Assembly (NCBI GenBank): GCA_009839835.1 | Contig: VXOY01000010.1 | Location: 4,025-68,024, forward strand | DNA length: 64,000 nt | Direction: 5' to 3' | Origin: Candidatus Spechtbacteria bacterium SB0662_bin_43 | GTDB taxonomy: Bacteria > Patescibacteriota > Minisyncoccia > Spechtbacterales > 2-12-FULL-38-22 | Shown: piece by piece, positions 12,871 through 62,592 of the stretch | How positions within the stretch are numbered: the first letter of the stretch is position 1 | Layout: each line of letters opens with the position of its first letter | Notes under the pieces: generated by a model | Database searches by the model: none | Told to the model about the DNA's origin: nothing | What the model saw: the letters and a program-made list of their open reading frames with translations, nothing else | Translations under genes and position numbers: made by a program

Positions 12871-15408
12871 ATGGCAAATTCCAAAGAAGCACAATCACGG
12901 ATAAAGATTAACAAGTTTTTAGAAGACGCAGGGTGGCGGTTTTTTGATACAGAAAAAGGTGAGGCAAACATTCGGCTTGAAGCCAGTGTAAAAATAACCC
13001 AACAAGATATTGATGAAATGGGAGAGGATTTTGAGAATACCCAAAGAGGATTTGTAGATTATTTATTGTTGGATGATAAGGGATTTCCTTTTGTTGTCTT
13101 GGAAGCAAAGAGAGAAGGTAAAAATCCATTAGATGGTAAAGAACAAGCACGTAGGTACGCCCAGTCGCAGAATGCCAGGTTTGTTTTACTATCAAATGGC
13201 AATACGCATTACTTTTGGGATTTGGAAAGCGGTAACCCAGAAGTTATTATAGAGTTTCCAAAACAAGAATCATTGTTGCATCGTTCAGGGTTTCAGCCAG
13301 ATAACCAACGGCTATCCAGTGAAAGCGTTAAAGAGGATTATATTGCTTTGACGCAAAATCCAAACTATAAAGAGGATCCTCGTTATCGGGACAAAAGCAC
13401 AAGGGAAGAATATCTCTCTCAGGAGGACTTACGAATTTTACGTCCCTATCAACTCAGAGCAATTCATGCATTACAAAAGAGTGCTGGTGAAGGTAGTACC
13501 AGGTTTCTCTTTGAGATGGCAACAGGTACAGGGAAAACTCTTGTGGCAGGTGCGGTTATAAAACTTTTTTTGAGAACAGGCAACGCGAAACGAATTTTGT
13601 TTTTGGTTGATAGAGTAGAATTAAAAAATCAGGCGTATGATAATTTTAATACTTACTTAAAGAACGATTGCACATCTGTTATTTATAAAAACAACAGAGA
13701 CGACTGGCAGAAGGCAGAGATAGTCATCTCAACTGTTCAGAGTCTTGCTTCTCAAGATAAGTATAAGAAGTTTTCGCCAACTGACTTTGGCTTGGTGATT
13801 TCTGATGAGGCACACCGCTCAATTGGAGGGAGTAATGGGAATTATAGGGCAGTGTTTGAGTATTTTGTCGGATATAAGTTGGGACTCACCGCAACACCAA
13901 AAGATTACTTGAAAAATGTTGATTCACAAAAATTACCTCAAAAAGACCCTCGTGCGTGGGAACGTAGGCAGCTTTTGGATACCTATACGACTTTCGGTTG
14001 TCCAAGCGGTGAACCAACATTTCGTTACACACTAATCAGTGGTGTGAAAGATGAATATCTTATCAATCCTATTGCTGTTGATGCACGAACAGAAATAACC
14101 ACTCAGTTACTTTCAGAAAAGGGCTATGCTATTATTGCTGAGAATGATGAAGGAGAAAAAGAGGAAGGAGTGTTTTTTCATAAAGATTTTGAGAAAAAGT
14201 TTTTCTCAGATAATACTAATAAAGCATTCTGTGGGACGATTATTAAAAATGCTCTGCGAGATCCTATCAGCAGAGAAATTGGCAAGACCATTGTGTTTTG
14301 TGTTAGACAGAGCCACGCTTCTAAGATTACACAGATATTGAATCAAATGGCGGACAAAGTGTGGCCTGGCAAATACAACTCTGACTTTGCGGTACAGGTC
14401 ACATCAAATGTTCCTGATGCTCAACAAATGACGATGAATTTCGCAAACAATAATCTTACAGGACGCACCAATTTTCTCCCTGGTTATAAGTCAAGCAAGA
14501 CAAGAGTATGTGTAACAGTCGGGATGATGACAACAGGATATGACTGCAAGGATATTTTAAATCTTGCGTTGCTTCGTCCTATTTTTTCTCCAACAGACTT
14601 TGTGCAGATTAAGGGACGAGGTACCCGTAAGTTTACCTTCGGGTACAAAAATGAAGATGGGGAAGAGATAAAGAAAGAAAAAGATACATTCAAGATGTTT
14701 GATTTCTTTGCGAACTGTGAGTATTTTGAGGAAAAGTTTGATTATGATGAGGCACTCCAATTGTCAGTTGCACAGAGGAATGGCAGTAGTTTTTCTGCGG
14801 ATGATTTCAGCATCCAAAGTACGATGGACGAGGCAACTACTTATGCTCCTGATACTGTTACTCGGTACAAAGAAAAGCAGATTAGCAGTGCAGGGATGAA
14901 AGTAGATCGTAAATTATTTGAAAAAGCCAAAGAAGAAATTGGAAAGGATAAAGATATTCAAGATGCTGTTATGCAAGAACAGTGGGACAAGGCAATCAAT
15001 ATCACTGTGCATAAGTATCAAGATAAGCCTGAGCTCTATATCAATCTTGATAAACTTCGTCGTAGCGAGAGCTTAGATAGACGATTGACGTGGCGTGAGG
15101 TATTAGAGCGAGTATTTGGATTTGTTGATACCTTTCCATCAAAAGATGAAAAATTAGAGGAAGAATGCGAGAAGTTTATCTCTATTGATAAGCCCAAGAG
15201 TAAGTATGTACCATATATTAAGAATTTTATTAAGGCATACCTTACAGATGAAAGGTTTCATGCAATTATTGAAAACAGAAACTATGGAGAGCTCAATAAC
15301 TACGCGGGTTTTCCAATGTCAGATTTTAAGGCATTAGGAGAAGATTTACGCAAGAAATTACCCGAATACATAAAAGATTATATACCCATCAATCAATATA
15401 AGGAATAA
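12871..15408 (+). CDS. hsdR: Type I restriction enzyme R subunit (compact, 845 aa)
   Basis: N-terminal HsdR_N nuclease MANSKEAQSRIKINKFLEDAGWRF...DYLLLDDKGFPFVVLEAKREG. SF2 motifs EMATGTGKT (I), DEAHRS (II), LGLTATP (III), TTGYDCKD / QIKGRGTRK (V/VI). Confidence 0.85.
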   Translation: MANSKEAQSRIKINKFLEDAGWRFFDTEKGEANIRLEASVKITQQDIDEMGEDFENTQRGFVDYLLLDDKGFPFVVLEAKREGKNPLDGKEQARRYAQSQNARFVLLSNGNTHYFWDLESGNPEVIIEFPKQESLLHRSGFQPDNQRLSSESVKEDYIALTQNPNYKEDPRYRDKSTREEYLSQEDLRILRPYQLRAIHALQKSAGEGSTRFLFEMATGTGKTLVAGAVIKLFLRTGNAKRILFLVDRVELKNQAYDNFNTYLKNDCTSVIYKNNRDDWQKAEIVISTVQSLASQDKYKKFSPTDFGLVISDEAHRSIGGSNGNYRAVFEYFVGYKLGLTATPKDYLKNVDSQKLPQKDPRAWERRQLLDTYTTFGCPSGEPTFRYTLISGVKDEYLINPIAVDARTEITTQLLSEKGYAIIAENDEGEKEEGVFFHKDFEKKFFSDNTNKAFCGTIIKNALRDPISREIGKTIVFCVRQSHASKITQILNQMADKVWPGKYNSDFAVQVTSNVPDAQQMTMNFANNNLTGRTNFLPGYKSSKTRVCVTVGMMTTGYDCKDILNLALLRPIFSPTDFVQIKGRGTRKFTFGYKNEDGEEIKKEKDTFKMFDFFANCEYFEEKFDYDEALQLSVAQRNGSSFSADDFSIQSTMDEATTYAPDTVTRYKEKQISSAGMKVDRKLFEKAKEEIGKDKDIQDAVMQEQWDKAINITVHKYQDKPELYINLDKLRRSESLDRRLTWREVLERVFGFVDTFPSKDEKLEEECEKFISIDKPKSKYVPYIKNFIKAYLTDERFHAIIENRNYGELNNYAGFPMSDFKALGEDLRKKLPEYIKDYIPINQYKE

Positions 15409-15415
15409 TAAAGTT

Positions 15416-15485
15416 AGTTTACATCTCTTGACGAGATATAAACTAAATCGCATTTTAGTTTATATCTATAGGTAAGATGTAAACT
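15416..15485. promoter_or_regulatory. Nested perfect palindrome (A-B-loop-B'-A') in the hsdR / AlbA_2-gene spacer; candidate operator or RNA hairpin
   Basis: agtttacatct(15416-26) ... gatataaactaaa(15435-47) tcgca tttagtttatatc(15454-66) ... agatgtaaact(15475-85). A further gatataaacta copy at ~15558. Confidence 0.4.
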
Positions 15486-15597
15486 AAAATAAAAGATAGT
15501 TTTTGTTGACTGATGAAATCTGAGTTAGGTCGCGATTTAATGTATAGTGATAGGCGTGATATAAACTATTGTCCAAAAATATGCCATAATAAATAGC

Positions 15598-17031
15598 ATG
15601 GATGATATCGTGAATACAATTCTGAATATCCCAGAAGAGACACAAACCATTGAGTTTAAACGTTTAGCTGGCGATAAAGTTGTTCGTAAGATTTTGCAGA
15701 CTATCGTTGCTATGGCAAATACTGATGGCGGAACGATTATCTTAGGCGTTGATGACCCAGAGAAGACAGCATTGAAGGGATGTGATAGGATTTTCGGAGT
15801 TGAAGAGGATAAGGTTTTGCTTGATGAGATTTTGAAAGAGCAGTCAAAAATTAATCCACAACTTCAAGGTATTCAGTTTCGCCATATCAAGGCACAAGGT
15901 GATAAAACAATTGTTTTGATAACAGTTGAAAAATCTAAAGAATCATTAGTCTCATTGAGTAATGATGTTTTTACTCGTCTCAATAAAAGTAATAAAAAAT
16001 TAAACCCACAAGAAATTGTAAAGTGGAGTTATACCAAAGGATTTATAAAGGCGGATAAAGAATTGGTGGATGTGGATTTTGAACTTTTACAGACAAAATA
16101 TTTTGATGTCTGGTGCGGTGCAATGGGTATCTCTGGAGGAACCATCCAAAGCATTTTATCTCAGGCTGGTTTGGCAAAAAAAGGTCAGGAAGAAATCTTG
16201 CGACCAACAAGAGCAGCCGTTCTACTTTTCGCCGAACATCCTACTTACCTAATGGAAATACATTGTACTGTGCGAGTTATACAACTCCGAGGCACATTAG
16301 AACGATTTGAGACTGTTCCTAATTATGTTAGTAAGCCAAAAACTATTGGTGGTCCAATCATAGAAGTAATTCGTAATTCTCACGAGTATGTTTTGAGTTT
16401 ATTGGGGGCAGGTATAGAAATTCATTCTGGTTTTGTTAATACTTTTAAGATTCCCGAACGAGCAGTGAAAGAGGCTATTACGAATGCTGTCATACATCGT
16501 GATTACCGTATTCAAAGAGATGTTGAGATTCGTGTTTTTGAAGATAGAGTTGAGGTATTAAGTCCTGGGCTATTTACTTATAATATAACTGCGAATAATA
16601 TAGGGTTCGTGCGTGCAGATGGTGAGAGGAATGATTTGCTGGTCAAACATCTGCGAGAATTTCCTAATCCACCGAATTTAAACTTCAATGAAGGCGTTCG
16701 TGCAATGAGGGCGGAAATGGATAAGCAAAATTTATACCCTCCGATTTTTATGACATACCCTACATACCCTGACTCTGTGAACGTTATTCTCCTGAACGAA
16801 GAAAGACCGACAGAGTGGGAAAAGGTAAGACTATACCTATCAAGAAATAGGTATATTGATAATAAAACAGCAAGAAACATAACAGGGGTTGTACAAATGC
16901 ATGATATGTCACGTATGCTCAAGAGATGGACAGAGCAAGGATTTTTGGTAAAAATTGATGCCGAGTCTAAGTATTTTAAGGGTACAAAATATAAATTAGC
17001 AAATATTGATGAGATGGGTATAGAGCAGTGA
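15598..17031 (+). CDS. AlbA_2 (Schlafen-like, divergent AAA) + HATPase_c_4-like + wHTH protein embedded in the hsd operon
   Basis: N-terminal ETQTIEFKRLAGDKV...MANTDGGTIILGVDD (AlbA_2/pfam04326-like). C-terminal EAITNAVIHRDY block typical of the RecG-C-terminal-like HATPase_c_4 domain. Stop 17031 sits 10 nt before the hsdM start. Confidence 0.7.
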   Translation: MDDIVNTILNIPEETQTIEFKRLAGDKVVRKILQTIVAMANTDGGTIILGVDDPEKTALKGCDRIFGVEEDKVLLDEILKEQSKINPQLQGIQFRHIKAQGDKTIVLITVEKSKESLVSLSNDVFTRLNKSNKKLNPQEIVKWSYTKGFIKADKELVDVDFELLQTKYFDVWCGAMGISGGTIQSILSQAGLAKKGQEEILRPTRAAVLLFAEHPTYLMEIHCTVRVIQLRGTLERFETVPNYVSKPKTIGGPIIEVIRNSHEYVLSLLGAGIEIHSGFVNTFKIPERAVKEAITNAVIHRDYRIQRDVEIRVFEDRVEVLSPGLFTYNITANNIGFVRADGERNDLLVKHLREFPNPPNLNFNEGVRAMRAEMDKQNLYPPIFMTYPTYPDSVNVILLNEERPTEWEKVRLYLSRNRYIDNKTARNITGVVQMHDMSRMLKRWTEQGFLVKIDAESKYFKGTKYKLANIDEMGIEQ

Positions 17032-17040
17032 GAGTTTTAC

Positions 17041-19512
17041 TTGCAAACCCAAATGCAAGTAAAACTTAAAACCCCATTAAATAGGCAAAAAACAGCATCT
17101 TTACTTGCAAATCACTCAAAATTCACTATGTTAGATGCAGAAACAAAACGACACATTGATGCAGCAAGGCAAGTTCTTGTTGGTAAGGTGCCAGACCCAA
17201 AGGCGCAAGTAGACCAAATTACCACAGCCTTGATTTACAAGTTTATGGACGATATGGACAAAGAGTCGCAGGAGCTTGGTGGTAAGGCACAATTTTTCTC
17301 TGGGGATTTTAGTCAATATTCGTGGACGAAGATTTTAGATAGTAAATTATCTGGACAAGAGCGATTCAATTTGTATAATGAAGCAATTAAGAAGATGCCT
17401 CGCAATGAAAATATACCCCAACTTTTCAGAGATATTTTCAAAGATGCACTTCTACCATATCGCGATTCTGCAACTCTTTCACTGTTCTTGAAAGAGATTG
17501 ATAATTTTACATACGATCATAGCGAGAATCTGGGCGATGCATTTGAATATCTACTCTCTATACTTGGCTCGCAAGGGGACGCAGGTCAATTCCGCACACC
17601 TCGTCATATTATTGATTTTATTGTTGATGTTGTAGATCCAAAAAAGAATGAGACTATTTTGGATCCTGCGTGTGGAACAGCAGGCTTTCTTATATCCGCG
17701 TACAAGCATATTGTTGAAAATAATGATGGCAAGGATAATAAAACAGGAGAATTAACAGATAAAGAAACAACCTTAACACCAGACGAAAAACAGCGACTGG
17801 TCAAGAACGTTGTAGGGTATGATATTTCGCCCGATATGGTGAAGCTATCGTTGGTGAATATGTATCTTCATAAGTTTACCAGTCCGCAGATCTTTGAGTA
17901 CGATACTCTTACCAGCGAATCAAGATGGGATGATCAATTTGATGTAATCCTGGCTAATCCACCATTTATGACACCAAAAGGTGGTATTCGTCCACACAAG
18001 CGATTTTCCGTTCAAGCGAGTCGTTCCGAAGTACTTTTCGTGGATTACATTTTGGAGCATCTTAACTTAAAAGGACGTGCAGGTATTATTGTGCCTGAAG
18101 GGATTATATTCAAAGCAGATAAAGCATATAAATCACTCCGTAAGAAATTGATAGATGATGGATTGGTTGCTGTCGTGAGTTTACCTGCAGGCGTGTTTAA
18201 ACCATACTCAGGCGTAAAAACATCAGTTTTATTTTTTGATAATCAGGTTGCAAAAACAACAGATGAATTATTGTTTATAAAAATAGAAAATGATGGGTAT
18301 GAACTTGGAGACCAGAGGAGAAAAATCAAGGAGAATGATTTACCCGAAGCACTGGAAGTATTACAGCAATGGAAGCAGGGTAAGAAGAAAGAAAGCGAAC
18401 TTGCTTTATGGGTGAAGAAAGAAAAAATCGCAAAAAGCGAGGATTATAGCTTGGTAGGCGATAGATATGGAGAAGTAAAAGAAAACAAAAAGCAAAAATA
18501 TCCAATGGTGGAACTGGGAGAGGTTTGTGGTTTTCAGCGTGGCACAATGATTACGAAGAATATGACAGAAGAAGGCGATGTTCCTGTAATTGCGAGCTCT
18601 AAACGACCTTCGTACTACCACAATCAATCTAATAGACAGCCGCCTACGATTACAATATCATCATCTGGTGATGCTGGTTTTGTCAATTTTTTTGAGATTC
18701 CTATATTTGCATCTGACTGTTTTACGGTAGAACCCTTAGATAAAGATCAAATCAATATCTATTTTCTTTACTCTATACTAAAATCAAAACAAGAGTGTAT
18801 CTATAAACTGCAGAAAGGGGTAGCGCAGAAACATGTGTATCCAAAGGATATATCAACAATCAAGATTCCTCTTCCGCCACTTAAAATTCAACAACAAATC
18901 GTGGAAGAGATTGAAGTAAAGCAAAATGCCATCAATCATGCTCAAGAAATCATCAAAAATCTAGAGAGAGAGAGATTGTATTTTGGTAACGAAATTAGAA
19001 AACTAAAAAATGTAAAATGGGTTGAATTGGGTGAGGTGGTACAGACGATTGTTCCACCAAAAAAGATTAAAAAGAGAGATTTTGCACAAGTGGGAGATTA
19101 TCCAATTATAGATCAGTCACAGAGTCAGATTGCTGGGTGGAGTAGTGATGAATCTGCGGTTGTTAAAATTCAAAATCCTGTGGTAATATTTGGCGATCAC
19201 ACGTGCGCTATAAAATACGCTGATAGGCCGTTTATTCAAGGTGCTGATGGTTGTAAAATACTAGAGGTGTGTAGTAATTTGATGCCTAAATTTTTATTTT
19301 TCTATTTAAAAAATCACCCTATTCAAAAAGAAGGGTATAAGCGCAATTTCACTAGACTCAGGTTACTCAAAGTTCCTCTCCTGTCACATGAAATTCAAAA
19401 ACAACTCGTCGCAGAAGCAGAAAAAGAAGAAGCAATAATCAAAGCAAACCAAACCCTTATTAAAATAATGGAAGATAAGATTGATAAGGTTTTGCGGGAG
19501 GTAGGCAAGTAG
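17041..19512 (+). CDS. Type I R-M methyltransferase-specificity fusion (HsdM N-terminal ~480 aa + full two-TRD HsdS)
   Basis: HsdM motifs DPACGTAGFL (motif I) and ILANPPF (motif IV). S part: two TRDs, each opened by VELGEV, separated by the conserved IPLPPLKIQQQIVEEIE central repeat. Confidence 0.85.
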   Translation: MQTQMQVKLKTPLNRQKTASLLANHSKFTMLDAETKRHIDAARQVLVGKVPDPKAQVDQITTALIYKFMDDMDKESQELGGKAQFFSGDFSQYSWTKILDSKLSGQERFNLYNEAIKKMPRNENIPQLFRDIFKDALLPYRDSATLSLFLKEIDNFTYDHSENLGDAFEYLLSILGSQGDAGQFRTPRHIIDFIVDVVDPKKNETILDPACGTAGFLISAYKHIVENNDGKDNKTGELTDKETTLTPDEKQRLVKNVVGYDISPDMVKLSLVNMYLHKFTSPQIFEYDTLTSESRWDDQFDVILANPPFMTPKGGIRPHKRFSVQASRSEVLFVDYILEHLNLKGRAGIIVPEGIIFKADKAYKSLRKKLIDDGLVAVVSLPAGVFKPYSGVKTSVLFFDNQVAKTTDELLFIKIENDGYELGDQRRKIKENDLPEALEVLQQWKQGKKKESELALWVKKEKIAKSEDYSLVGDRYGEVKENKKQKYPMVELGEVCGFQRGTMITKNMTEEGDVPVIASSKRPSYYHNQSNRQPPTITISSSGDAGFVNFFEIPIFASDCFTVEPLDKDQINIYFLYSILKSKQECIYKLQKGVAQKHVYPKDISTIKIPLPPLKIQQQIVEEIEVKQNAINHAQEIIKNLERERLYFGNEIRKLKNVKWVELGEVVQTIVPPKKIKKRDFAQVGDYPIIDQSQSQIAGWSSDESAVVKIQNPVVIFGDHTCAIKYADRPFIQGADGCKILEVCSNLMPKFLFFYLKNHPIQKEGYKRNFTRLRLLKVPLLSHEIQKQLVAEAEKEEAIIKANQTLIKIMEDKIDKVLREVGK

Positions 19513-19529
19513 TGGCAGGATGATTATTT

Positions 19530-20234
19530 ATGGATTCTGTATATCAAATTTTTGATTATTTACCGATTAGATATCAGATAGACAGCGATTTTGATTATTT
19601 TGAATTTCTCAAAAACTCAGTAGAACAAAATTATCACATAGAGAATTATCATTTTGCAAGCATTGCACTCCACATGGTGTTTATGGGGATTGTATACCAT
19701 CACCTTTATATCTTGACTTGTGAGAGTGGTGGAAGACGAGATGCTCTGTTAAGAGATTCTAAGAAGATTCGTAATCAATACAATAAAAGAGGGAAAGTAT
19801 TGTCTTGGCAAAATTTTTCATCAGAAAATGAGCGTAGTGTTTTTAAATTCTTGAAGACTGTTGGAGCAAAAAATGATATGATTGATCAGTTGAAGCAGTT
19901 AGTTGATCAACGCAATGACTTAGTCCATACCAACGGATCGCTTTTGCAAGATCAGGTGCTTTTCGATGAGAAGGCAAATGACTATTTGCAAGGTATTAAA
20001 AATATCCACTATGTTTGTAGAGAGGAATATAAAAATTTATTTTTGAAGTTCTTGAATGAACTTCAATTTGATATTGAGGATATTCAGGATGCCGAGATGT
20101 ATCTTGAAAATTTCATTCGTAAATATGCTGTTAGCAGAAATTTACTTTCACATCTCGGAGATATAGTGCCAAAGAGTAGATATCTCCAAGGAACCCAATT
20201 ACTGTATAGTATTATTCAGGACAGGGGTTTGTGA
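19530..20234 (+). CDS. Hypothetical 234-aa protein, possible HEPN-like (R-x4-H) Abi-type component; 18 nt after hsdMS stop
   Basis: Soluble, helical-looking sequence. Single R-x4-H motif QRNDLVHT. Operonic spacing with hsdMS. No firm family call. Confidence 0.55.
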   Translation: MDSVYQIFDYLPIRYQIDSDFDYFEFLKNSVEQNYHIENYHFASIALHMVFMGIVYHHLYILTCESGGRRDALLRDSKKIRNQYNKRGKVLSWQNFSSENERSVFKFLKTVGAKNDMIDQLKQLVDQRNDLVHTNGSLLQDQVLFDEKANDYLQGIKNIHYVCREEYKNLFLKFLNELQFDIEDIQDAEMYLENFIRKYAVSRNLLSHLGDIVPKSRYLQGTQLLYSIIQDRGL

Positions 20235-20362
20235 TATAATAAGTGCCAGTCATCTTATCATTAATTTAATACGTTCTTTAAAAGCGATAAATTTATTTTG
20301 CGATATAATAAGAAGATGGTGTGTTATCTAGAGACGACGAGAGATACTAAATTAGAGTCATT

Positions 20363-22081
20363 ATGAGGTATACAAAATTTACAATTCAGAACTATAAGGG
20401 AATAGTTGGTCCGCTTATTGTTGATACTCATAAAATATCCCTCATGCCAATTATTGGAGTCAATGAGTGTGGTAAAACTACAATTTTGCAGGCAATTTTC
20501 GGTTTTGATTATTCTAATGATGTTTTCAATAAGACTGTTCAGCATTTGGAGGATATACATAATTTATATGAAACTAGTGATCAAACTCCCATCATCAGTG
20601 CGGAGATTGAGATAACAAATGATGAAATAAAAGATATTTTGGAAGAATTAGTTAATGATAATCAATGGTCTGATAAGGCACAGGCATATTTAGGATACTG
20701 TAAAGATATAAGTTTTACGTTTGCTATTGATAGAAATATGAGGACACGCAAGTATAATATTAAGTATAGGAAATTTACAGACAAAAATTTTAATCATGTA
20801 TTTGCTAAATCCATTATAGAAAAACTACCTTTCATTCTTTTCTTTGATGATTTTCGTGATAATATAGAAGAAAAAATTGAGATTAAAAAAGATTCTGACG
20901 GTAATCTCAGTGGATGGCTTGCGATAGTAGATCGCCTCTTTCGGGTTGCAGATGAAAATTTTGATATCCTACAGCTACCTAGCCTGGAGGAACGTAAGCA
21001 AAAAACAATTTTGGCCGCAGTAAATAAATTACTTAATGACACTCTAACACAAGAATGGCAGAATTTTAGACTTGATGACAAAGAGGCCCTGGAAATACAA
21101 GTGGACTATAAGCAGGAATCGGAGATGGTGGCGAATGGACAACCCGTACATAGGCACTTTGTGAGGTTTGATGTCGTAGAGAAAGATAAGGATGGCTATA
21201 AACATTTCTTTTTCGTTAGAAATCGTAGCAAGGGATTTTTCTGGTTTTTTAACTTTGTGATGAAATTGGAGTTCAATCCTAAATTAGTAGATAGTGCAGA
21301 AGGTGCAATTTATTTATTGGATGAACCAGGATCGTATCTGCATGCATCCGCACAAACAAAGCTATGCGAGAAATTGAAGTCATTGTCTGGTACCAATATA
21401 GTTTTGTACTGCACCCATTCTCATTATCTTCTTGATCCTAACGTAATACCATTCAACAACATCAAGGTGGCAGAGAAGAATCCCAGAAATTTTGCAATAA
21501 GGTTATTTCCCATTCATCAAGCTAGTGTATCTAGGAAAAATTCCAGATCAGCATTTCAGCCAATCATGGATGCACTCAAGATTAACCCCTTCGCACTAGA
21601 TATTAATCCTAATGAATGTGTGCTGATTGTTGAAGGTATAGATGATCATTATGCTTTTGAGATGTTGAAGGGCGATAGAAACGTTAAAATCCTGCCAGGA
21701 GTAGGAGCAGATTCTATACGGTATTTCATTTCACTAATGATTGCGTGGGGAGTTGATTATAGAGCATTGTGGGATAATGATCCAGTTGGGGCAAAAGCGA
21801 AAAAATCGGCAGGAGAGTTTTTCGGCGAAGTTGAATATAAAGATAAATTTTATTTGCTCCCACACGAAAATACCAAAAAGAAAAAGACCATTCTCCAAGA
21901 TTTATTTGATGGAGATGACATTTCCATCATTAAAAAAGAGCTGAGTTTACCCAAAAATACATCATTTAGTAGAGTTATCCAATCTTTATTTCATTCTGAC
22001 AAAAGACAACATGTTTTAAAGAAAGTATCTAAAAAAACAAAAGATAATTTTAAAAGAGTATTTATGATACTGAGTCTTTAA
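20363..22081 (+). CDS. OLD-family ATP-dependent endonuclease (ABC-type ATPase + Toprim)
   Basis: Walker A GVNECGKTT, Walker B/D-loop AIYLLDEPGSYLHASAQ, H-loop YCTHSHY. C-terminal Toprim VLIVEGIDDHYAFE ... ALWDNDPVG. 572 aa, like P2 Old / GajA. Confidence 0.8.
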   Translation: MRYTKFTIQNYKGIVGPLIVDTHKISLMPIIGVNECGKTTILQAIFGFDYSNDVFNKTVQHLEDIHNLYETSDQTPIISAEIEITNDEIKDILEELVNDNQWSDKAQAYLGYCKDISFTFAIDRNMRTRKYNIKYRKFTDKNFNHVFAKSIIEKLPFILFFDDFRDNIEEKIEIKKDSDGNLSGWLAIVDRLFRVADENFDILQLPSLEERKQKTILAAVNKLLNDTLTQEWQNFRLDDKEALEIQVDYKQESEMVANGQPVHRHFVRFDVVEKDKDGYKHFFFVRNRSKGFFWFFNFVMKLEFNPKLVDSAEGAIYLLDEPGSYLHASAQTKLCEKLKSLSGTNIVLYCTHSHYLLDPNVIPFNNIKVAEKNPRNFAIRLFPIHQASVSRKNSRSAFQPIMDALKINPFALDINPNECVLIVEGIDDHYAFEMLKGDRNVKILPGVGADSIRYFISLMIAWGVDYRALWDNDPVGAKAKKSAGEFFGEVEYKDKFYLLPHENTKKKKTILQDLFDGDDISIIKKELSLPKNTSFSRVIQSLFHSDKRQHVLKKVSKKTKDNFKRVFMILSL

Positions 22082-22249
22082 TGTTTGTCTTGTGGAATAC
22101 GTGTGGAAGGATTGGGTATTGTATATTTTGGTGGTGTGATGTATAATGATTGAACCGAAATGTACAAGGTATATTTTGGTGTTCTTTGAAAATTGAATAC
22201 GAGTAAATAGTTATACAACAACCATTTATAGTTGTTTCGAATATTTTTT

Positions 22250-23707
<1,458 letters not shown>

Positions 23708-24031
23708 ACATTTTTTTGTAGTTTTTTTCTTTTCTCTATCTTTTTTGAAAAGAGGAAAATGAAGTTGTCGACCAGATAGTATGTTTTGTGTAGTAGTGAT
23801 TTTCCATTGTTCTTTGATGATGGAATTTGATCTACGAACACAACACGTACAACAGCGATGAGGCAGGAATGGTACTTTCATATTCGTATGAAAGTACCAT
23901 TCCTTGCCTTGTCTCTGTATGCTGAAATGAGGGAAAGCATTTTCTTTCTCTGCTTGTAGGCAAGCTACACAGGAGTATGAACCTGTATTTCATATAATAT
24001 TCGGAACAACTATGAGTGGTTGTGTAACCTC

Positions 24032-24061
24032 AAAAAACCCTGATTTTATCAGGGTTTTTTG
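24032..24061. terminator. Bidirectional Rho-independent terminator
   Basis: caaaaaaccctga-tttta-tcagggtttttt. Confidence 0.6.
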
Positions 24062-24144
24062 AGAACAGAGATTTATTTGATAGAGTGCAATATGCCCAAA
24101 TTATATTTTGGTGTTTTCAGAAAGGTAGTATATGATAAATGTGA

Positions 24145-31987: not shown

Positions 31988-32045
31988 AATGTGTTGTTAT
32001 ACAAGTATATATATATACTTGTATAGGGTAATTAGTTGATAATAA

Positions 32046-32103
32046 GCCTTCGCATTTGAAGGCTTCTCTATGGTGTTGAGACGCTCAACACCATAGAGAA
32101 GCC
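32046..32103 (-). promoter_or_regulatory. Two overlapping, mutually exclusive hairpins in the atpB-atpE spacer (candidate attenuator / processing / stability element)
   Basis: gccttc-gcattt-gaaggc (32046-63) overlaps the 20-bp stem ggcttctctatggtgttgag-acg-ctcaacaccatagagaagcc (32061-32103), which abuts the atpB stop. Further upstream (TA)n palindrome acaagtatatatatatacttgt at 32001-22. Confidence 0.45.
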
Positions 32104-32104
32104 C

Positions 32105-32989
32105 TTAATGTTCTGCTTCTGTTGTTGCAACTTGTATAAAGATAAGTGTGAGCATTGAGAATACCAACGCTTGGATAAATCCTACAAATATTTCTAATCC
32201 ATAAGACGGCAGTGGGGCAATATATGCTAATAGTCCCAATATACTGATAAGAAGAACTTCTCCTGCAAAGACATTCCCGAATAGACGAAAAGAGAACGAT
32301 ATAATTTTTGATAGTTCTCCAAAAAGCTCCAAGATGCCCACAAAAAAAAGGATAGGGCTTGCAAACGTGATGTATTTACTCAGGTGTGCCTTTTTCCCAA
32401 TAGCCCTAATAGCAAAGAAATGGGTTGCTACCACTGATATGGCTGCTAACGCAAGGGTCATATTGAGGTCAGCGTACGTAGAACGAAACAGATGAACAGC
32501 TTCTCCGTCTTGATTAACAACATCAATACTACCAACACCAGGAAGAAGCCCTAACCAGTTTGAAAGCAAGATAAAGAGAAAAAAAGTCGCGATAAGAGGG
32601 AATGCTTGCTCTGCTTTGCGGCGAGACCCTAAAATACCGGTCATAAAATTAAGACCGGACTCAACGATTGTTTCTCCAATGTTTTGCAACGTGTGGGGTA
32701 CAAAACGGATACGATAGGTAATCAGTATCCCTATAACAATAAGGAGAGCAATAGTTACCCAGCTCATTATGAGCGAGTTTGTTATTGGAAAAGACCCTAT
32801 AGTAGCAATTGTGTCTGCGTAAAGATGTGGCTTAGGCGTATCTGGTCGCGGGGGAAAAATAGCAAATGAAATCAGTAGTAAAAGACCAATAGCAAGAGGA
32901 ATCTTCGGTATGTCAGAAAAAGTTCTGGGTATGCTCATTTGTGCAAGGAAAATATAACGGATAATAAGCGAAAAATCGTGATTCAGCAA
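32105..32989 (-). CDS. atpB: F-type ATP synthase subunit a
   Basis: Polytopic membrane protein with conserved R in LSFRLFGNVFAGEVLL. Confidence 0.9.
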   Translation of the reverse strand: MLNHDFSLIIRYIFLAQMSIPRTFSDIPKIPLAIGLLLLISFAIFPPRPDTPKPHLYADTIATIGSFPITNSLIMSWVTIALLIVIGILITYRIRFVPHTLQNIGETIVESGLNFMTGILGSRRKAEQAFPLIATFFLFILLSNWLGLLPGVGSIDVVNQDGEAVHLFRSTYADLNMTLALAAISVVATHFFAIRAIGKKAHLSKYITFASPILFFVGILELFGELSKIISFSFRLFGNVFAGEVLLISILGLLAYIAPLPSYGLEIFVGFIQALVFSMLTLIFIQVATTEAEH

Positions 32990-33126
32990 TACCTATTTAT
33001 TTTACAGAGCAATAGTTTCATTTGTCAATACCTCTTTTTTCACATGGTTAGGGTTTTATTTCTATTCAAGCGTCTTTGAGAAATAAAAAAGTTGTGTATT
33101 TTTGTGTTGCATGGTATAGTGAAGGT

Positions 33127-33250
33127 ACTGATCGTTGTTCGCTCACGGTCAGTACCTCCTTCCAGCCGCCCCACTTCTTTCACTTCCTGCTGTGTGACAG
33201 GAGTGGGGTGGCGCATCTTTCTAATACACACCCTTTGATGGGTGTTTTTT
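33127..33250 (+). ncRNA. Candidate small structured RNA (promoter-to-terminator unit, ~124 nt)
   Basis: TTGTGT(33092)-17 nt with TGn-TATAGT(33115-20) extended -10. Two long hairpins: gaaggtactgatcg...ggtcagtacctcc; ccccacttctttcacttcctg-ctgtgtga-caggagtgggg. Terminator acaccc-tttgat-gggtgt-tttttt (33228-50). Could alternatively be the atp-operon leader read on the other strand. Confidence 0.3.
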
Positions 33251-33289
33251 GTTGAAGTTGAGAAAGTGAGCCAAAAAAGATTTTACTAC

Positions 33290-33408
33290 ACAGCGACCTC
33301 TAAAAGATTTTTTCTGTGCTAAACCGATTACCGCTAACCACCAGAAAAAACGTTTTTCGGTCGCTGATGGTGGTAGTTGAGGTATAAAAAGTAAAATCCT
33401 TTTTTTGG
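33290..33408. repeat. Family-A intergenic structured repeat, copy 1 (~88% identical to copy at 62466)
   Basis: acagcgacctctaaaagattttttctg...cagaaaaaacgtttttcggtcgctg with imperfect long stem, then conserved tataaaaagtaaaatccttttttt module. Confidence 0.6.
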
Positions 33409-33441
33409 TTTCTTTTCAGCTAACCATCTTATACGTAAAAA

Positions 33442-34053
33442 TTGTATTTTGTTTATTGGGGCAGAGATATAGTATATAATAAAACTATGAAAATGACGCA
33501 GCGAATGTACGATGCGGTAAACACTGTGGCAATTCTCCATAATGGTCAGTATCGCAAAGACAAGGTAACACCGTTTATAACCCATCCATTTTTTGTTGGT
33601 ATGGTGTTGTCTCGTTACACAGACGATGAAGACGTCGTGATAGCTGGTTTGTTTCACGATGTTTTAGAGGATGTCCCAGGGCAGACGCGAGACCATATTG
33701 CAAGCGGTTTTGGTGATAGGATTGCGGATATTGTTGTGGGCGTAACGCACAATACAGAGATTGATTGGAAAACAAGCCGTACAGATTATTTGGATATGCT
33801 TCGTTCTGGCAGTGAGGAATCGTTGATGGTTGCGTGTGCAGACAAAATACACAACATCACCTCACATATTGAGGGTGTTCGCAAAGGAGGAGAGCAATTT
33901 TGGAGTTATTTTTCAGCACCAAAACAAGAGTATAAGTGGTTCTACGAATCCACGCTTTCTATTGCTCAAGATCGGTTAAAGAACCCAATCGTTGATGAAC
34001 TGCGCGGCGTGGTCCAACGAGCAAATGAGGAAATTTTTGCGCCCAGCGAGTGA
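33442..34053 (+). CDS. HD-domain phosphohydrolase (RelA/SpoT-hydrolase-like); likely start Met 33487
   Basis: ITHPFFVGMVL...AGLFHDVLED (H...HD motif of (p)ppGpp-hydrolase-type HD domains). Confidence 0.7.
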   Translation: MYFVYWGRDIVYNKTMKMTQRMYDAVNTVAILHNGQYRKDKVTPFITHPFFVGMVLSRYTDDEDVVIAGLFHDVLEDVPGQTRDHIASGFGDRIADIVVGVTHNTEIDWKTSRTDYLDMLRSGSEESLMVACADKIHNITSHIEGVRKGGEQFWSYFSAPKQEYKWFYESTLSIAQDRLKNPIVDELRGVVQRANEEIFAPSE

Positions 34054-34056
34054 TGT

Positions 34057-34512
34057 ATGGGAAAAAGCGTCCGTTATGATACATCCTTTGGCGTTGTCCC
34101 TGTGTTGCAAGAGCAAGCAGAGTGGTATTTTCTTCTCATACAACACCAGACAAGCGACCCTTCCGAAAAAGGGCACTGGTCATTTCCAAAGGGACATAAG
34201 GAGAGTGGCGAAACAGACATTGAAACAGCAGTTCGGGAATTGAAAGAGGAAACAGGCATCGTTGATATGAGGCTGCACGATGAATGTGTTTTTGAGGAGC
34301 GTTACTCGTTTTGTGTTGATGGCATAGATGTGTATAAAACGGTAGTGTATTTTTTGTGCGTTGTAAAAAATCGCAACGTCGCTATTCAGATAGACGAAGT
34401 TGCAGACTATCAATGGGTTGCGTACGAAGACGCCTTACAAAAAGCGTCTTACGATAACACGCGAAACATTATTACGCAGGTGAATCGTGTTTTGCGCACA
34501 GGAAGTTTTTAA
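34057..34512 (+). CDS. NUDIX hydrolase
   Basis: Nudix box GHWSFPKGHKESGETDIETAVRELKEETGI. Confidence 0.85.
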   Translation: MGKSVRYDTSFGVVPVLQEQAEWYFLLIQHQTSDPSEKGHWSFPKGHKESGETDIETAVRELKEETGIVDMRLHDECVFEERYSFCVDGIDVYKTVVYFLCVVKNRNVAIQIDEVADYQWVAYEDALQKASYDNTRNIITQVNRVLRTGSF

Positions 34513-48221: not shown

Positions 48222-48323
48222 AGAGAATACGATTTTACTTTTTTATGCCCAGCTTATGTATAAAGACAATTTCATATACAGTGGTGGTAGTTTATGCATA
48301 AAAAAGTAAAATCGTATTCTCTC
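48222..48323. repeat. Family-B long-hairpin intergenic element, copy 1 (27-bp perfect stem)
   Basis: agagaatacgattttacttttttatgc ... cccagcttatgtataaagacaatttcatatacagtggtggtagttta ... gcataaaaaagtaaaatcgtattctct. Confidence 0.65.
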
Positions 48324-52188: not shown

Positions 52189-52281
52189 TTCGCGCCTCTA
52201 CGGGCGGAGCATTCATTTGCTCCGCCCGTTCCATTTTTAATCTCATTCTTTTTTTTAGTGCAGAGATTTTCTCATAGAGAG

Positions 52282-52384
52282 TATAGACGATGGTATTTAC
52301 TTTTTTATGCCAAGGTCATCTATGAAACAATTGTATCTATATAGGTAGTATTTATGCATAAAAAAGCAAATACCATCGTCTATA
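52282..52384. repeat. Family-B long-hairpin intergenic element, copy 2 (29-bp stem, one mismatch)
   Basis: tatagacgatggtatttacttttttatgc-caagg...gtagtattta-tgcataaaaaagcaaataccatcgtctata. Confidence 0.6.
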
Positions 52385-52497
52385 ATGTATAACTTGTAGC
52401 GAACAATAAGAGAGTTTTATAGATATAAACGAATTTTTACAATGGGGATTTATCCAGTATCGTAAACGAGCAAGATGGTGTATACTTATAAGAGTAT

Positions 52498-53196: not shown

Positions 53197-53226
53197 CAGC
53201 ATCTCTATTACGAAACTATCAACGTA

Positions 53227-53308
53227 GAATTTTCTTTTTTATGCCCAGCTCACTACAAAGACAATCTTGTGTACGGTAGTGGCATTGTATGCATAAAAAA
53301 GAAAATCC
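53227..53308. repeat. Family-B long-hairpin intergenic element, copy 3 (shorter stem)
   Basis: gaattttcttttttatgc-ccagctcactacaaagacaatcttgtgtacggtagtggcattgta-tgcataaaaaagaaaatcc. Confidence 0.6.
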
Positions 53309-53376
53309 TCCCGCTGATACTCATTAATATATACACAAACAGCGCAGTGTTCGTTATCATTTAATTCGTTATTTTT

Positions 53377-61225: not shown

Positions 61226-62454
61226 TTCGTCTTCACGATATAGTGCGTATTAAGGAGAAAAAGATGAAAGAACTGGATGTCCATATGCAGGCAAAGGTTG
61301 GAATCTCTGGTGTGCGCGAACGGCTTGAGAACACAATACAACAAGGCATAAATTCAAAGTTAGGCATACTGGGACTATCAGAGGATTCGTCGTATGACGA
61401 GGTGCACAAGGGGATTTTTCGCGCTGTGCAACACGATGAGGCACAGTTGTATAAGTATGTTGGAATAGAGCCTTCCAATGTTGATTTTCAAAAGATTACT
61501 CAGCGCGCACGGGAAATGGGTGGTGAGCAGAACGGATTTTTTCTCAAAAAAGAGTGCGCCCGTAAAATATTAGAGAAACGTCCTCCTGAGACAACGATGA
61601 AGCAGTTGGGGTACTCGTCTGTTGAAGAGATGCTCTCGCGCGAGGATATTATGGATGTTTTCTCTGCCCTTCGTTTTACAGAGAGTACAGAGTGGATGCA
61701 CAAGACATTTGATGACGCGTACTCTCGTTTTACAGCGAACGACTTTGAGAAGCGCGCGATAGAGATTCGCGTCTTGGGCGACCAATGGAAAGAAGTTGCA
61801 GAAAAGTTTGTCGCAAAAAAACATCACAACGTGAGCCACCTGAAAGAGTTTGGCGTTATTTTTGTGAACCCTATTGCAGAGTCCGCACCAGGGAAATTCC
61901 TGCGCGACTTTGCGTTATTGCTCCACTACACGCACGAGATTGTATTTTATAGCAAGCTGTTTGAGCGATACATTGAGAGAGAAGATTTTAATGAGAGATT
62001 TTTGTCGCTGCTGCGTGGCGATGTTCCGCGACAGCCGCTTTTTCGGAGGAAGGGAGAGTGGTTGATTATTCAGCGATACCTCTGGAAAGAGAACCCGAAT
62101 GATAAACGGCTATTTGCGCCACGGGTGAATCCTGAATCGTTGCACTGGCGTAAGGCACAACAGGATATTGTCGCCTTGTCGCAAAAAGAGCAGATTGATG
62201 GATTTTCCCTCTGGGACGATTCCGACTACTTGGCAGCCTTCTTCCCGCACGCAAACGAGCTTGGAATGGTGAGCTTTGATATGGAAGACAGCGCGATGAG
62301 CTTTGTTGCGCACAACGAACAGCAAGACACTCGTTTTATCTATCACCAACAAGAGGCGCTCTGGAATAAAATATTCGCGTCATACGTTGGTGGGTACGAT
62401 AGATTGGAAGAGTACATTCTTGATTTTATGGACAGAGGGCGAATTACACTATAG
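61222..62454 (+). CDS. Hypothetical protein (410 aa)
   Basis: Clean ORF overlapping upstream stop by 4 nt (operonic); no recognisable motifs. Confidence 0.5.
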   Translation: MIRLHDIVRIKEKKMKELDVHMQAKVGISGVRERLENTIQQGINSKLGILGLSEDSSYDEVHKGIFRAVQHDEAQLYKYVGIEPSNVDFQKITQRAREMGGEQNGFFLKKECARKILEKRPPETTMKQLGYSSVEEMLSREDIMDVFSALRFTESTEWMHKTFDDAYSRFTANDFEKRAIEIRVLGDQWKEVAEKFVAKKHHNVSHLKEFGVIFVNPIAESAPGKFLRDFALLLHYTHEIVFYSKLFERYIEREDFNERFLSLLRGDVPRQPLFRRKGEWLIIQRYLWKENPNDKRLFAPRVNPESLHWRKAQQDIVALSQKEQIDGFSLWDDSDYLAAFFPHANELGMVSFDMEDSAMSFVAHNEQQDTRFIYHQQEALWNKIFASYVGGYDRLEEYILDFMDRGRITL

Positions 62455-62465
62455 GGTGCAGTATT

Positions 62466-62573
62466 ACAGCGACCTCCAAAAGATTTTTTCTGGACTAAAC
62501 TGATTACAGCAACCGCCAGAAAAAACTTTTTTCGGTCGCTATGTGATATGTATAGAAAGTAAATTCTTTTTTA
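62466..62573. repeat. Family-A intergenic structured repeat, copy 2
   Basis: acagcgacctccaaaagattttttctg...cagaaaaaactttttcggtcgcta + tatagaaagtaaattctttttt module; 20 nt upstream of fba start. Confidence 0.6.
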
Positions 62574-62592
62574 TAATATAAGATATTGTTGT

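What the first reader, a model, noticed from the sequence alone, without database searches (positions are those of the whole stretch)
33290..33408. Family-A conserved ~110-nt structured intergenic element (second copy at 62466-62573)
The two copies are ~88% identical over the core acagcgacctc[t/c]aaaagattttttctg...cagaaaaaac[g]tttttcggtcgct. The core forms a long imperfect stem (cagcgacc/ggtcgctg outer, ttttttctg/cagaaaaaa inner) around a ~25-nt loop. A second shared module, tatA[a/g]aaagtaaa[a/t]tc[c/t]ttttttt, follows.

Both lie immediately upstream of plus-strand genes (HD hydrolase, fba), so they could be a shared cis-regulatory leader/riboswitch-like element, a promoter module, or a small MITE-like repeat.
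Basis: seen in the sequence. Interest (0 to 1): 0.55.

Follow-up and report, generated by a model that had tools for sequence, protein, structure and literature searches.

The report
Strain-variable palindromic insertion element
The two look-alike hairpin sequences are real, but they are small non-coding palindromic DNA insertions that come and go between closely related strains of an uncultured Patescibacteria bacterium, not a conserved regulatory leader of the downstream genes.

Summary
Two copies of a ~76-nt imperfect hairpin (33291-33366 and 62467-62541) are 89% identical, and each is followed by a shared A+T-rich module. Each folds far better than shuffled sequence (z -5 to -7). No third copy exists in the window or in any fetched locus.

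The riboswitch/leader reading fails. Copy 2 is a 143-nt replacement of an 18-nt spacer. It is absent from three conspecific assemblies (97-98.5% nt identity) and from three more distant relatives, which have only 8-16 nt between the same two genes. It also rewrote the last codons of the upstream gene (ISL* to ITL*). Copy 1 is present in all three conspecific lineages but absent at ~84% and ~79% nt identity. It lies upstream of the likely leaderless HD promoter.

No match was found in Rfam, phage or plasmid records, IMG/VR, GTDB genomes or JGI metagenomes. Copy 1 shares its ends with a second hairpin family in the window, so the elements are mosaic.

Best reading (0.55): a lineage-specific, non-autonomous palindromic repeat of the MITE/REPIN/Correia kind. 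No clean target duplication and no transposase were found. This is a new member of a known kind, of modest interest.

The parts
33273..33289 (+). Copy 1, left outer arm (AAAAAAGATTTTACT). It pairs with 33390-33404. GATTTTACT is also the start of the family-B left arm.
   Evidence: Inverted repeat I20, 93% complementary. Fold of 33268-33412 at -40.6 kcal/mol, z -4.45.
33291..33366 (+). Copy 1 core hairpin. Outer stem 33291-33298 with 33359-33366. Middle stem 33302-33306 with 33351-33355. Inner stem 33308-33317 with 33341-33350. Apical mini-stem 33324-33326 with 33331-33333.
   Evidence: (CM 106.7 bits). It is 100% identical in strain L012. Lineage L035/L036 carries a variant core.
33367..33408 (+). 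Copy 1 right module (ATGGTGGTAGTTGAGGTATAAAAAGTAAAATCCTTTTTTTGG). It is shared with copy 2, and even more closely with family-B copy 48282-48315.
   Evidence: The pattern TGGTGGTAGTTNNNGNATAAAAA occurs only at 33368 and 48282.
62441..62466 (+). Copy 2 left arm. It overlaps the last four codons and the stop of the 410-aa gene (GAATTACACTATAG) and pairs with the right module. From 62449 onward the sequence differs from the empty-site alleles.
   Evidence: Fold. Alignments A2 and A6. Protein C-terminus ITL against ISL.
62467..62541 (+). Copy 2 core hairpin (outer stem 62467-62474 with 62534-62541).
   Evidence: z -6.96; CM 104 bits. Identical in three assemblies from the same study (L001, L002, L003).
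62542..62571 (+). Copy 2 right module (TGTGATATGTATAGAAAGTAAATTCTTTTTT).
62572..62591 (+). Right-hand part of the copy 2 insertion that is not shared with copy 1. It contains TATAAT (62572-62577), 15 nt before the fba ATG (62593). It replaces the ancestral spacer AAGAGCCGAC.
   Evidence: Not called by the promoter scan.
62449..62591 (+). Full extent of DNA present in the window strain but replaced by 18 nt (TCATTGTAAAGAGCCGAC) in conspecific strains L033, L007 and L008.
48222..48322 (+). Related hairpin, family B copy 1. It has 27-bp perfect arms, and its ends (GATTTTACT ... TGGTGGTAGTT..ATAAAAAAGTAAAATC) are shared with copy 1 of family A.
   Evidence: (z -9.0).
52275..52391 (+). Related hairpin, family B copy 2 (36-nt arms). 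Its outer stem shows a G:C to A:T double change between the window and strain L033.
53226..53309 (+). Related hairpin, family B copy 3.

Best explanation
The two copies belong to a small, lineage-specific family of non-coding palindromic insertion elements. This is the kind that includes MITEs, REPINs, Correia elements (CREE) and ERIC sequences. The host is an uncultured Patescibacteria bacterium that NCBI names Candidatus Spechtbacteria bacterium SB0662_bin_43.

**Shown**
- Each copy is one long imperfect hairpin: a 76-nt core plus outer arms.
- Each copy occupies an intergenic spacer that is short and element-free in relatives.
- Copy 2 arose after the window strain separated from strains that are 97-98.5% identical. 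The event replaced 18 nt with 143 nt and re-coded the end of the upstream gene.
- Copy 1 is older. It is fixed within the species and absent at ~84% nt identity.
- The elements are mosaic. Copy 1 carries the same left and right end pieces as a second hairpin family (B) in the window, wrapped around a different centre.

**Inferred**
- The DNA is copied into new spacers by a trans-acting enzyme, or by recombination or template switching on the hairpin. The enzyme is not encoded in the 64-kb window.
- The source of copy 2 was a third copy that I could not see. Its core is within 3-4 changes of the family consensus, but its flanks differ strongly from those of copy 1.
- The arms are kept complementary either by selection on the hairpin or by arm-to-arm correction.
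- Effects on neighbouring genes are by-products. Copy 2 turns a 10-nt operon junction into a 138-nt spacer that holds a strong hairpin and an A+T-rich stretch with TATAAT just before fba. This could change coupling, mRNA stability or transcription of fba.
For: - **Empty sites for copy 2.** L033 (same contig as L012, 97-98.5% nt identity), L007 and L008 (97-98%) have a 10-nt spacer. L009 (~84%), L010 and L011 (~68%) have 8-16 nt.
- **Not an assembly artefact.** The filled site is identical in three assemblies (L001-L003). The empty site is identical in three independent assemblies, one of them long-read.
- **Copy 1 distribution.** It is present in the window, L012 and L035/L036, and absent in L013 and L014.
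- **Non-coding.** A 1-nt indel separates the copies and no start codon is present (direct reading).
- **Hairpin strength.** z is -4.5 to -7.4 for all three variants, and 94.8% of pair cells are standard pairs.
- **Mosaic ends shared with family B**.
- **Position of copy 1.** It lies between an intrinsic terminator (33228-33250) and the conserved HD -10 box, which is a transcriptionally quiet spacer. Family B copy 2 sits likewise between a terminator and a promoter-like box.
- **Fast change in the loop.** Between the window and L035 the copy 1 loop differs at 6 of 25 positions. The immediate flanks differ at 1 of 38 and 1 of 42. Five of the 8 core differences make L035 identical to copy 2. This fits exchange between copies or rapid loop turnover.
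- **Arm maintenance.** A compensatory G:C to A:T change occurs in a family-B outer stem between strains that differ by only 4 substitutions and one 1-nt indel in 311 nt.
- **A hint of more copies.** The Logan contig L002 begins inside the 5' arm of copy 2, as expected at a repeat-induced break in an assembly graph.
- **No known RNA family**.
Against: - Only two loci are known. Copy number in the rest of the genome is unknown.
- No clean target-site duplication exists. The inserted DNA at copy 2 is longer than the part shared with copy 1 (about 17 nt extra on the left, 20 nt on the right), so the element has no demonstrable fixed ends.
- No transposase, RAYT or IS200/IS605-type gene appears in the window or in any fetched locus.
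- Exact-pattern scans found no copy in GTDB genomes, JGI metagenomes or IMG/VR. Those scans are brittle: the L035 variant is in a JGI sample but was missed because its T-run is one base shorter.
- The conserved internal-loop sequence and one both-sides change in the apical mini-stem (CG versus TA, not significant at 162/500) leave room for a functional structured RNA or protein-binding site.
- Copy 2 could have arrived by recombination with an unseen donor allele rather than by transposition.
Confidence: 0.55

Rival explanations
1. The element is a functional transcription module that moves as a cassette. The hairpin acts as a partial terminator, insulator or mRNA-stabilising structure, and its A+T-rich right end supplies or strengthens a promoter for the downstream gene. 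Correia elements in Neisseria behave this way.
For: - All five hairpins of families A and B lie in the same orientation, 22-107 nt upstream of a + strand gene.
- The copy 2 insertion places TATAAT 15 nt before fba and removed the old spacer.
- The copy 1 right module contains GGTATAAAA, which resembles the TGGTATAAT-type boxes seen elsewhere in this genome.
- The inner stem is followed by a run of 5-6 T.
Against: - The TATAAT lies outside the region shared by the two copies.
- The promoter and terminator scans call nothing in either element.
- HD keeps its own conserved promoter downstream of copy 1, in relatives with and without the element.
- The stem is A-U rich with a 22-25-nt loop, unlike the canonical terminators of this genome.
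- Nearly all genes in this region are on the + strand, so the orientation bias is weak evidence.
Confidence: 0.15
2. The element is a structured RNA. It would be either a small RNA gene or a cis-acting leader or riboswitch that controls HD and fba.
For: - The fold is strong in all variants.
- The internal-loop sequences ACTAAAC and CAAYCG are conserved.
- One both-sides change occurs in the apical mini-stem, CCG..CGG versus CTG..CAG.
- The minus strand folds about 2.5-5 kcal/mol better in all three variants, which hints at G-U pairs on one strand.
Against: - The element is absent from orthologous loci in all relatives outside the species. Copy 2 is absent even within the species.
- HD and fba share no obvious pathway or ligand.
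- Copy 1 lies upstream of the likely HD transcription start.
- No promoter or terminator brackets the element.
- Rfam gives no hit.
- Covariation is not significant with three sequences (162 of 500 shuffles).
Confidence: 0.1
3. The element is a DNA-level recognition site. It would be a hairpin or cruciform bound or cut by a host or mobile-element protein, such as a nucleoid protein, a single-strand recombinase, or an attC- or dif-like site. Its spread would be a side effect of that activity.
For: - The arms are conserved in sequence, not just in pairing, and the internal loops are conserved.
- Arm complementarity is actively maintained in the sister family.
- Family B hairpins have conserved inner arms but copy-specific, mutually complementary outer stems.
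- A GGTAG motif sits just 5' of the right arm in four of the five elements. By recollection, this resembles the GTAG of REP sequences.
Against: - No recombinase, integrase or Y1 transposase gene lies nearby.
- No known site consensus (attC R-boxes, dif) is visible.
- With only two loci, a binding role cannot be tested.
Confidence: 0.12
4. The element is an artefact or a trivial local duplication, caused by assembly error or a one-off segmental copy with no family behind it.
For: Only two copies are known, and they lie 29 kb apart on one contig.
Against: - The filled and empty alleles are each reproduced in several independent assemblies and samples.
- The two copies differ by 11% and by several indels in their flanks, so one is not a fresh copy of the other.
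- The orthologue in L035 is a third distinct variant.
Confidence: 0.03

Closest known systems
REPINs (REP doublets forming hairpins, mobilised by RAYT transposases; PMC3116915, PMC3337134)
   Same: Both consist of two ~25-nt arms in inverted orientation around a short spacer, giving a ~80-110-nt hairpin. Both are non-coding and extragenic, and vary in presence between strains. A GTAG-containing motif lies near one arm in the wider A/B group.
   Different: - No RAYT gene has been seen.
- Copy number looks low (2 per 64 kb), where REPINs typically run to tens or hundreds.
- The individual arms are not themselves REP-like palindromes.
- The loop is as conserved as the arms.
- The host is a Patescibacteria lineage. 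I found no paper describing such palindromic repeats (MITE- or REP-like) in this group.
Correia repeat enclosed elements (CREE) of Neisseria (PMC2649163)
   Same: Both are ~100-150-bp elements with inverted-repeat ends and a conserved core. Both insert in intergenic spacers and at gene ends, and differ between strains. Both can create promoter hexamers at their ends and form RNA hairpins in co-transcripts.
   Different: - CREE have defined 26-bp terminal repeats and a TA target duplication (own knowledge). Here no fixed ends and no duplication were found.
- There is no sequence similarity.
- CREE occur in hundreds of copies.
MITEs in general (non-autonomous derivatives of IS elements)
   Same: Both are small and non-coding with an inverted-repeat build. 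Both show insertion polymorphism and form subfamilies that share ends but differ internally (families A and B here).
   Different: - No target-site duplication.
- No parent IS with matching terminal repeats.
- The whole element is one palindrome, rather than unique DNA between two terminal repeats.
ERIC/IRU and BOX elements (own knowledge)
   Same: Both are imperfect palindromes of ~120 bp in transcribed or intergenic regions. BOX elements have a modular, mosaic build, and both kinds vary between strains without a known transposase.
   Different: The host phyla are unrelated, there is no sequence similarity, and those families have much higher copy numbers.
Riboswitches and cis-regulatory leaders (Rfam)
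   Same: Both are structured and lie upstream of genes, on the same strand as the gene.
   Different: The element is not conserved at orthologous loci and matches no Rfam model. Copy 1 is probably outside the mRNA, and the two downstream genes are functionally unrelated.

Membership tests
MITE | Terminal inverted repeats | tested here: met
   The whole element is an inverted repeat: core arms plus outer arms.
MITE | Target-site duplication flanking a precisely bounded insertion | tested here: not met
   Comparing the filled and empty alleles of copy 2 shows 18 nt replaced by 143 nt, with no direct repeat at the junctions. The inserted DNA extends beyond the part shared with copy 1.
MITE | Multiple dispersed copies in a genome | tested here: inconclusive
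   Two loci in 64 kb, and none in about 14 kb of extra same-species sequence.
MITE | A parent IS or transposase with matching ends | tested here: inconclusive
   Pfam tables and scans show no transposase in the window or in the loci. The rest of the genome was not seen.
MITE | Presence/absence polymorphism between close relatives | tested here: met
   Copy 2 is absent in L033, L007 and L008 (97-98.5% nt identity). Both copies are absent at ~84%.
REPIN / REP | Two inverted REP units around a spacer, forming a hairpin | tested here: inconclusive
   The architecture fits: 26-nt arms and a 22-25-nt spacer. The arms themselves are not palindromic REP units (direct reading).
REPIN / REP | A cognate RAYT (Y1 transposase) gene in the same genome | not testable with these tools
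   Only 64 kb plus flanks of the genome could be read, and no PF01797-type gene is present there.
REPIN / REP | A large within-genome population (tens to hundreds of copies) | not testable with these tools
   The whole MAG was not available. Exact-pattern scans of public collections gave no true hits.
Riboswitch / cis-regulatory leader | Conserved upstream of orthologous genes across related genomes | tested here: not met
   The element is absent upstream of fba in 6 related assemblies and upstream of HD in 2.
Riboswitch / cis-regulatory leader | Located within the 5' UTR of the regulated mRNA | tested here: inconclusive
   Copy 1 ends 65 nt upstream of a conserved -10 box that ends 6 nt before the ATG. 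This inference is from sequence, with no transcript data.
Riboswitch / cis-regulatory leader | Significant covariation supporting the fold, or a match to a curated model | tested here: not met
   No Rfam hit at gathering or E-value thresholds. One covarying pair among three sequences, with 162 of 500 shuffles as good.
Intrinsic terminator | Short G+C-rich stem, 3-8-nt loop, followed by a T-tract | tested here: not met
   The scan calls the neighbouring terminator at 33228-33250 but nothing in either element. The stems are A-T rich and the loop is 22-25 nt.

The most novel reading that the evidence does not exclude
Families A and B together would be a previously undescribed class of mosaic hairpin cassettes in Patescibacteria. 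The class would have conserved inner arms and internal loops, exchangeable centres, and copy-specific outer stems that are actively kept complementary. The cassettes would be propagated on single-stranded DNA by an unrecognised hairpin-specific enzyme (RAYT- or HUH-like, or something new), or would encode a structured RNA with a trans function. The rapid, structure-preserving turnover between 95-98% identical strains would then reflect an active mechanism rather than drift.
Probability: 0.12. Interest if true: 0.6.

Novelty: new member of a known kind. Interest (0 to 1): 0.3.

Why it matters
- **Annotation.** This pair should not be annotated as a riboswitch or leader of HD and fba.
- **A rare look at CPR genome dynamics.** Patescibacteria genomes are small and tightly packed, and I found no paper describing palindromic repeats in this group. 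A dated example of a hairpin insertion is therefore a useful marker of strain-level change. Here a 10-nt operon junction was opened, the end of a gene was rewritten, and the translation-initiation region of a glycolytic gene was replaced.
- **Arm maintenance.** The structure-preserving changes in the sister family suggest that arm complementarity is actively maintained. That would be worth testing on a complete genome.
- **Limits.** With two loci and no mobilising enzyme identified, this remains an ordinary kind of element in an unusual host.

Tried and rejected
**Searches that gave nothing useful**
- Rfam at gathering thresholds on the whole window, and at E up to 10 on both loci. Only chance miRNA- or sRNA-like hairpin matches appeared, far below the cut-offs.
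- 5'-arm pattern GCGACCNNNAAAAGATTTTTTCTG. GTDB genomes gave 0 hits. JGI metagenomes gave 2 hits, both chance matches inside a high-GC coding sequence that reads like mraY by eye (not checked with a tool).
- 3'-arm, loop-plus-arm, relaxed hairpin and shared-module patterns against IMG/VR: 0 hits each.
- Family-B pattern against IMG/VR (0 hits) and GTDB (18 hits). The GTDB hits lie in Gilliamella, Clostridia, Bacteroidota and other unrelated groups, and none resembles family B.
- blastn in distant mode against phage and plasmid records: no match.
- Short-word blastn of the unique flanks of both insertions against the window and all loci: nothing beyond chance. The extra flanks are therefore not another repeat seen here.

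**Limits of these searches**
- The exact-pattern scans are brittle. They missed the L035 orthologue, which has T5 instead of T6.
- Extending the genome by looking up end-of-window proteins failed. Only an 847-nt contig came back.

**Ideas considered and dropped**
- Protein-coding: the copies differ by a frame-breaking indel and have no start codon.
- Pre-existing palindromic target: the empty sites have no hairpin.
- IS200/IS605-style TTAC targeting: TTAC lies at the left edge of both copies, but the empty site does not fit the rule.
- Import of copy 2 by homologous recombination from a diverged donor: the 70-80 nt on both sides are identical to the empty alleles, and SNP density is not raised nearby. 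This is not excluded for a conspecific donor.
- TIGR or CRISPR-like arrays: the elements are solitary, and no associated gene is present.

Full report
**1. The observation**

- The 26-nt 5' arm CAGCGACCTCYAAAAGATTTTTTCTG occurs exactly twice in the window (33291 and 62467, both on the + strand). None of 100 shuffles gave a match, even with three mismatches allowed.
- The cores are 89.5% identical over 76 nt (alignments).
The energies lie 5-7 standard deviations below shuffled sequence.
- The second shared module follows both cores.
- The downstream genes are an HD_4-domain protein and a class II fructose-bisphosphate aldolase.
- A covariance model of the core (R1), run without filters, finds no further copy in the window or in any related locus.

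**2. Host and context**

Exact-protein look-ups place the window on a metagenomic contig. NCBI names the organism Candidatus Spechtbacteria bacterium SB0662_bin_43, a Patescibacteria/CPR bacterium. No Pfam table or scan shows a transposase in the window or in the fetched flanks.

- **Copy 1** lies between the divergently oriented atp operon and HD. More precisely, it sits between an intrinsic terminator at 33228-33250 and the sequence TAGTATATAATAAAACTATG. That terminator closes a conserved small-RNA-like unit.
- In relatives the corresponding sequence is TGGTATATAATAAGAAATATG, an extended -10 box that ends 6-7 nt before the start codon. HD is therefore probably leaderless, and copy 1 is probably not in its mRNA. 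This is an inference from sequence.
- **Copy 2** begins within the last codons of a conserved 410-aa gene of unknown function and ends 22 nt before fba.

**3. The decisive comparison: filled and empty sites**

Relatives were found through fba, HD and the 410-aa protein, and their contigs were fetched.

| Lineage (loci) | nt identity to window | Copy 1 (atpB-HD) | Copy 2 (410-aa gene-fba) |
|---|---|---|---|
| Window strain (L001-L004) | same | present | present |
| ctg103176 (L012, L033) | 97-98.5% | present, 100% identical over 145 nt | absent, 10-nt spacer |
| L007, L008 | 97-98% | see next row | absent, 10-nt spacer |
| L035, L036 | 95% over 9 kb | present, variant core | see previous row |
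| SRR22586461 (L009, L013) | ~84% | absent | absent, 8 nt |
| L014 | ~79% | absent | not seen |
| L010, L011 | ~68% | not seen | absent, 8-16 nt |

L008 and L036 come from the same sample, so L007/L008 and L035/L036 probably represent one lineage.

*Copy 2 locus*
- Conspecific strains L033, L007 and L008 have only 10 nt between the 410-aa gene and fba. More distant relatives have 8-16 nt.
- In the window, 18 nt (TCATTGTAAAGAGCCGAC) are replaced by 143 nt (62449-62591). The 70-80 nt on either side are identical to the empty alleles.
- The event changed the C-terminus of the upstream protein from ISL* to ITL*. It also removed the old spacer in front of fba.
- The filled allele is identical in three assemblies. 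The empty allele is identical in three others, one of them long-read, so neither is an artefact.
- By outgroup comparison this is a gain in the window strain, made after it separated from strains 97-98.5% identical to it.

*Copy 1 locus*
- The element is present in the window, in L012 (100% identical over 145 nt) and in L035/L036.
- It is absent from L013 and L014, where a much shorter spacer separates the small-RNA terminator from the HD -10 box.

Neither copy is therefore conserved outside the species, and one is not even fixed within it. That result removes the riboswitch/leader reading.

**4. What the three variants show**

- The L035/L036 orthologue of copy 1 differs from the window copy at 8 of 76 core positions, 6 of them in the 25-nt loop. 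The immediate flanks differ at 1 of 38 and 1 of 42 positions.
- Five of the eight differences make L035 identical to copy 2. The copy 2 core is thus within 3-4 changes of the family consensus, and the window's copy 1 is the most derived.
- By contrast, the modules that flank copy 2 differ from those of copy 1 by many substitutions and indels. Copy 2 was therefore not copied recently from the copy 1 locus as a whole.
- I infer a third source copy, either elsewhere in the genome or in the population. In keeping with this, the Logan contig L002 starts inside the 5' arm of copy 2, as happens at repeat-induced breaks in an assembly graph.
- All three variants keep the hairpin, and 94.8% of pair cells are standard pairs.
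- One pair in an apical mini-stem changes on both sides: CCG-ATTA-CGG in L035 against CTG-ATTA-CAG in copy 2. With three sequences this is not significant (162 of 500 shuffles).

**5. Mosaic relationship with a second hairpin family**

Three other long hairpins lie at 48222-48322, 52275-52391 and 53226-53309 (family B).
- They share the inner arms TTTACTTTTTTATGC/GCATAAAAAAGTAAA.
- Their outer stems are copy-specific yet mutually complementary.
- Copy 1 of family A has the family-B left end (GATTTTACT) and the family-B right end (TGGTGGTAGTT...ATAAAAAGTAAAATC). The 19-base right-end pattern occurs only at these two places in the window. The A core replaces the B centre.
- Copy 2 has degenerate versions of the same ends.
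- In family B copy 2, the window and L033 differ by 4 substitutions and a 1-nt indel in 311 nt. Two of the substitutions are a G:C to A:T double change in the outer stem, and a third repairs an A-C mismatch.

Arm complementarity is therefore maintained on very short time scales. The cause could be selection on the hairpin or arm-to-arm templated correction; the second is my interpretation, from established knowledge of quasipalindrome mutation.

**6. Searches elsewhere**

- No Rfam family matches.
- No phage or plasmid record matches.
- Pattern scans of IMG/VR, GTDB genomes and JGI metagenomes gave only chance hits.
- These scans need exact matches. They missed the L035 variant, which comes from a JGI sample, so absence elsewhere is only weakly supported.
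- I found no paper describing such elements in Patescibacteria.

**7. Interpretation**

The best-supported reading (about 0.55) is a lineage-specific, non-autonomous palindromic insertion element.
- It is of the kind represented by REPINs (PMC3116915, PMC3337134), Correia elements (PMC2649163), MITEs and ERIC/BOX repeats.
- It works like these: a non-coding hairpin that lands in intergenic spacers, varies between strains, shares modular ends with sister families, and alters its neighbours incidentally.
- It cannot be filed in any of those families. There is no clean target duplication, no fixed ends, no cognate transposase and no demonstrated high copy number.

The rivals are:
- a mobile transcription module (0.15);
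- a DNA recognition site for an unknown protein (0.12);
- a structured RNA or leader (0.10);
- an artefact or trivial duplication (0.03).

**8. Verdict**

The regulatory interpretation is rejected, and the MITE-like alternative is partly supported. This is a new member of a known kind of element in an unusual host. Interest is modest (0.3). It would rise if a full-genome survey revealed a population of such mosaic hairpins with an identifiable enzyme or with significant covariation.

Noticed in passing
window 33105-33252 (+): A candidate small RNA gene lies between atpB and copy 1. It has an extended -10 box TGGTATAGT at ~33111-33119, then ~110-130 nt with two hairpins (GGTACTGA...TCAGTACC and GCCGCCCCAC...GTGGGGTGGC), then an intrinsic terminator at 33228-33250. 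It is conserved in relatives L013 and L014, with the first hairpin changing sequence but staying paired. No Rfam match was found. It differs by 7.4% between the window and L035, more than the neighbouring spacer.
   Followed up: partly
window 48222-48322, 52275-52391, 53226-53309: A second family of long hairpins (family B) has conserved inner arms and copy-specific, mutually complementary outer stems. Copy 2 shows a G:C to A:T compensatory change plus a mismatch repair between strains that differ by only 4 substitutions and one indel in 311 nt. Copy 3 is a local divergence hot spot (92% against ~97%).
   Followed up: partly
L001 12559-18263 versus L033 13568-14434 (just beyond the window end, after the RhuM gene): The window strain carries a ~5-kb block between the RhuM-family gene and rpsL that is absent from the 97-98.5% identical strain L033. 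The block holds ThsB_TIR, 8xMP, an AAA_15/SMC_N ATPase and three unknown genes. It looks like a strain-variable defence island lying 1.5 kb from the copy 2 insertion.
   Followed up: no
window 22246-23718: The 16S rRNA gene stands alone. Rfam calls no 23S or 5S gene anywhere in the 64-kb window, and hairpins or terminators follow the 16S at 23865-23904 and 24029-24063. The rRNA genes appear to be unlinked.
   Followed up: no
window 34285-34377: ARAGORN calls a 93-nt tRNA-Ile(GAT) inside the NUDIX coding sequence. Rfam does not see it, so it is probably a false positive.
   Followed up: no
window 32000-32989 (atpB) versus L035: atpB differs by 13% between the window and L035, with several indels, while HD and the downstream genes differ by 1.5-1.8%. 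This is a sharp mosaic boundary that suggests recombination with a diverged allele next to copy 1.
   Followed up: no
window 33471-33489 and 62572-62595: The HD start codon lies 6 nt after a TATAAT box that is conserved in relatives, so its mRNA is probably leaderless. After the copy 2 insertion, fba has TATAAT 15 nt upstream and has lost the AAGAG-containing spacer seen in the empty-site strains.
   Followed up: partly
window 12871-22081: This stretch holds a type I restriction-modification cluster (HsdR-like ResIII helicase, fused N6_Mtase/Methylase_S), a Schlafen/AlbA_2 protein and an AAA_15 ATPase. It is a second defence-gene region, lying upstream of the 16S gene.
   Followed up: no
window 32056-32108: A near-perfect 25-bp palindrome with a 3-nt loop lies at the 3' end of atpB, between atpB and atpE. 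Its loop triplet differs between the window and L035 (positions 32081-32083).
   Followed up: no
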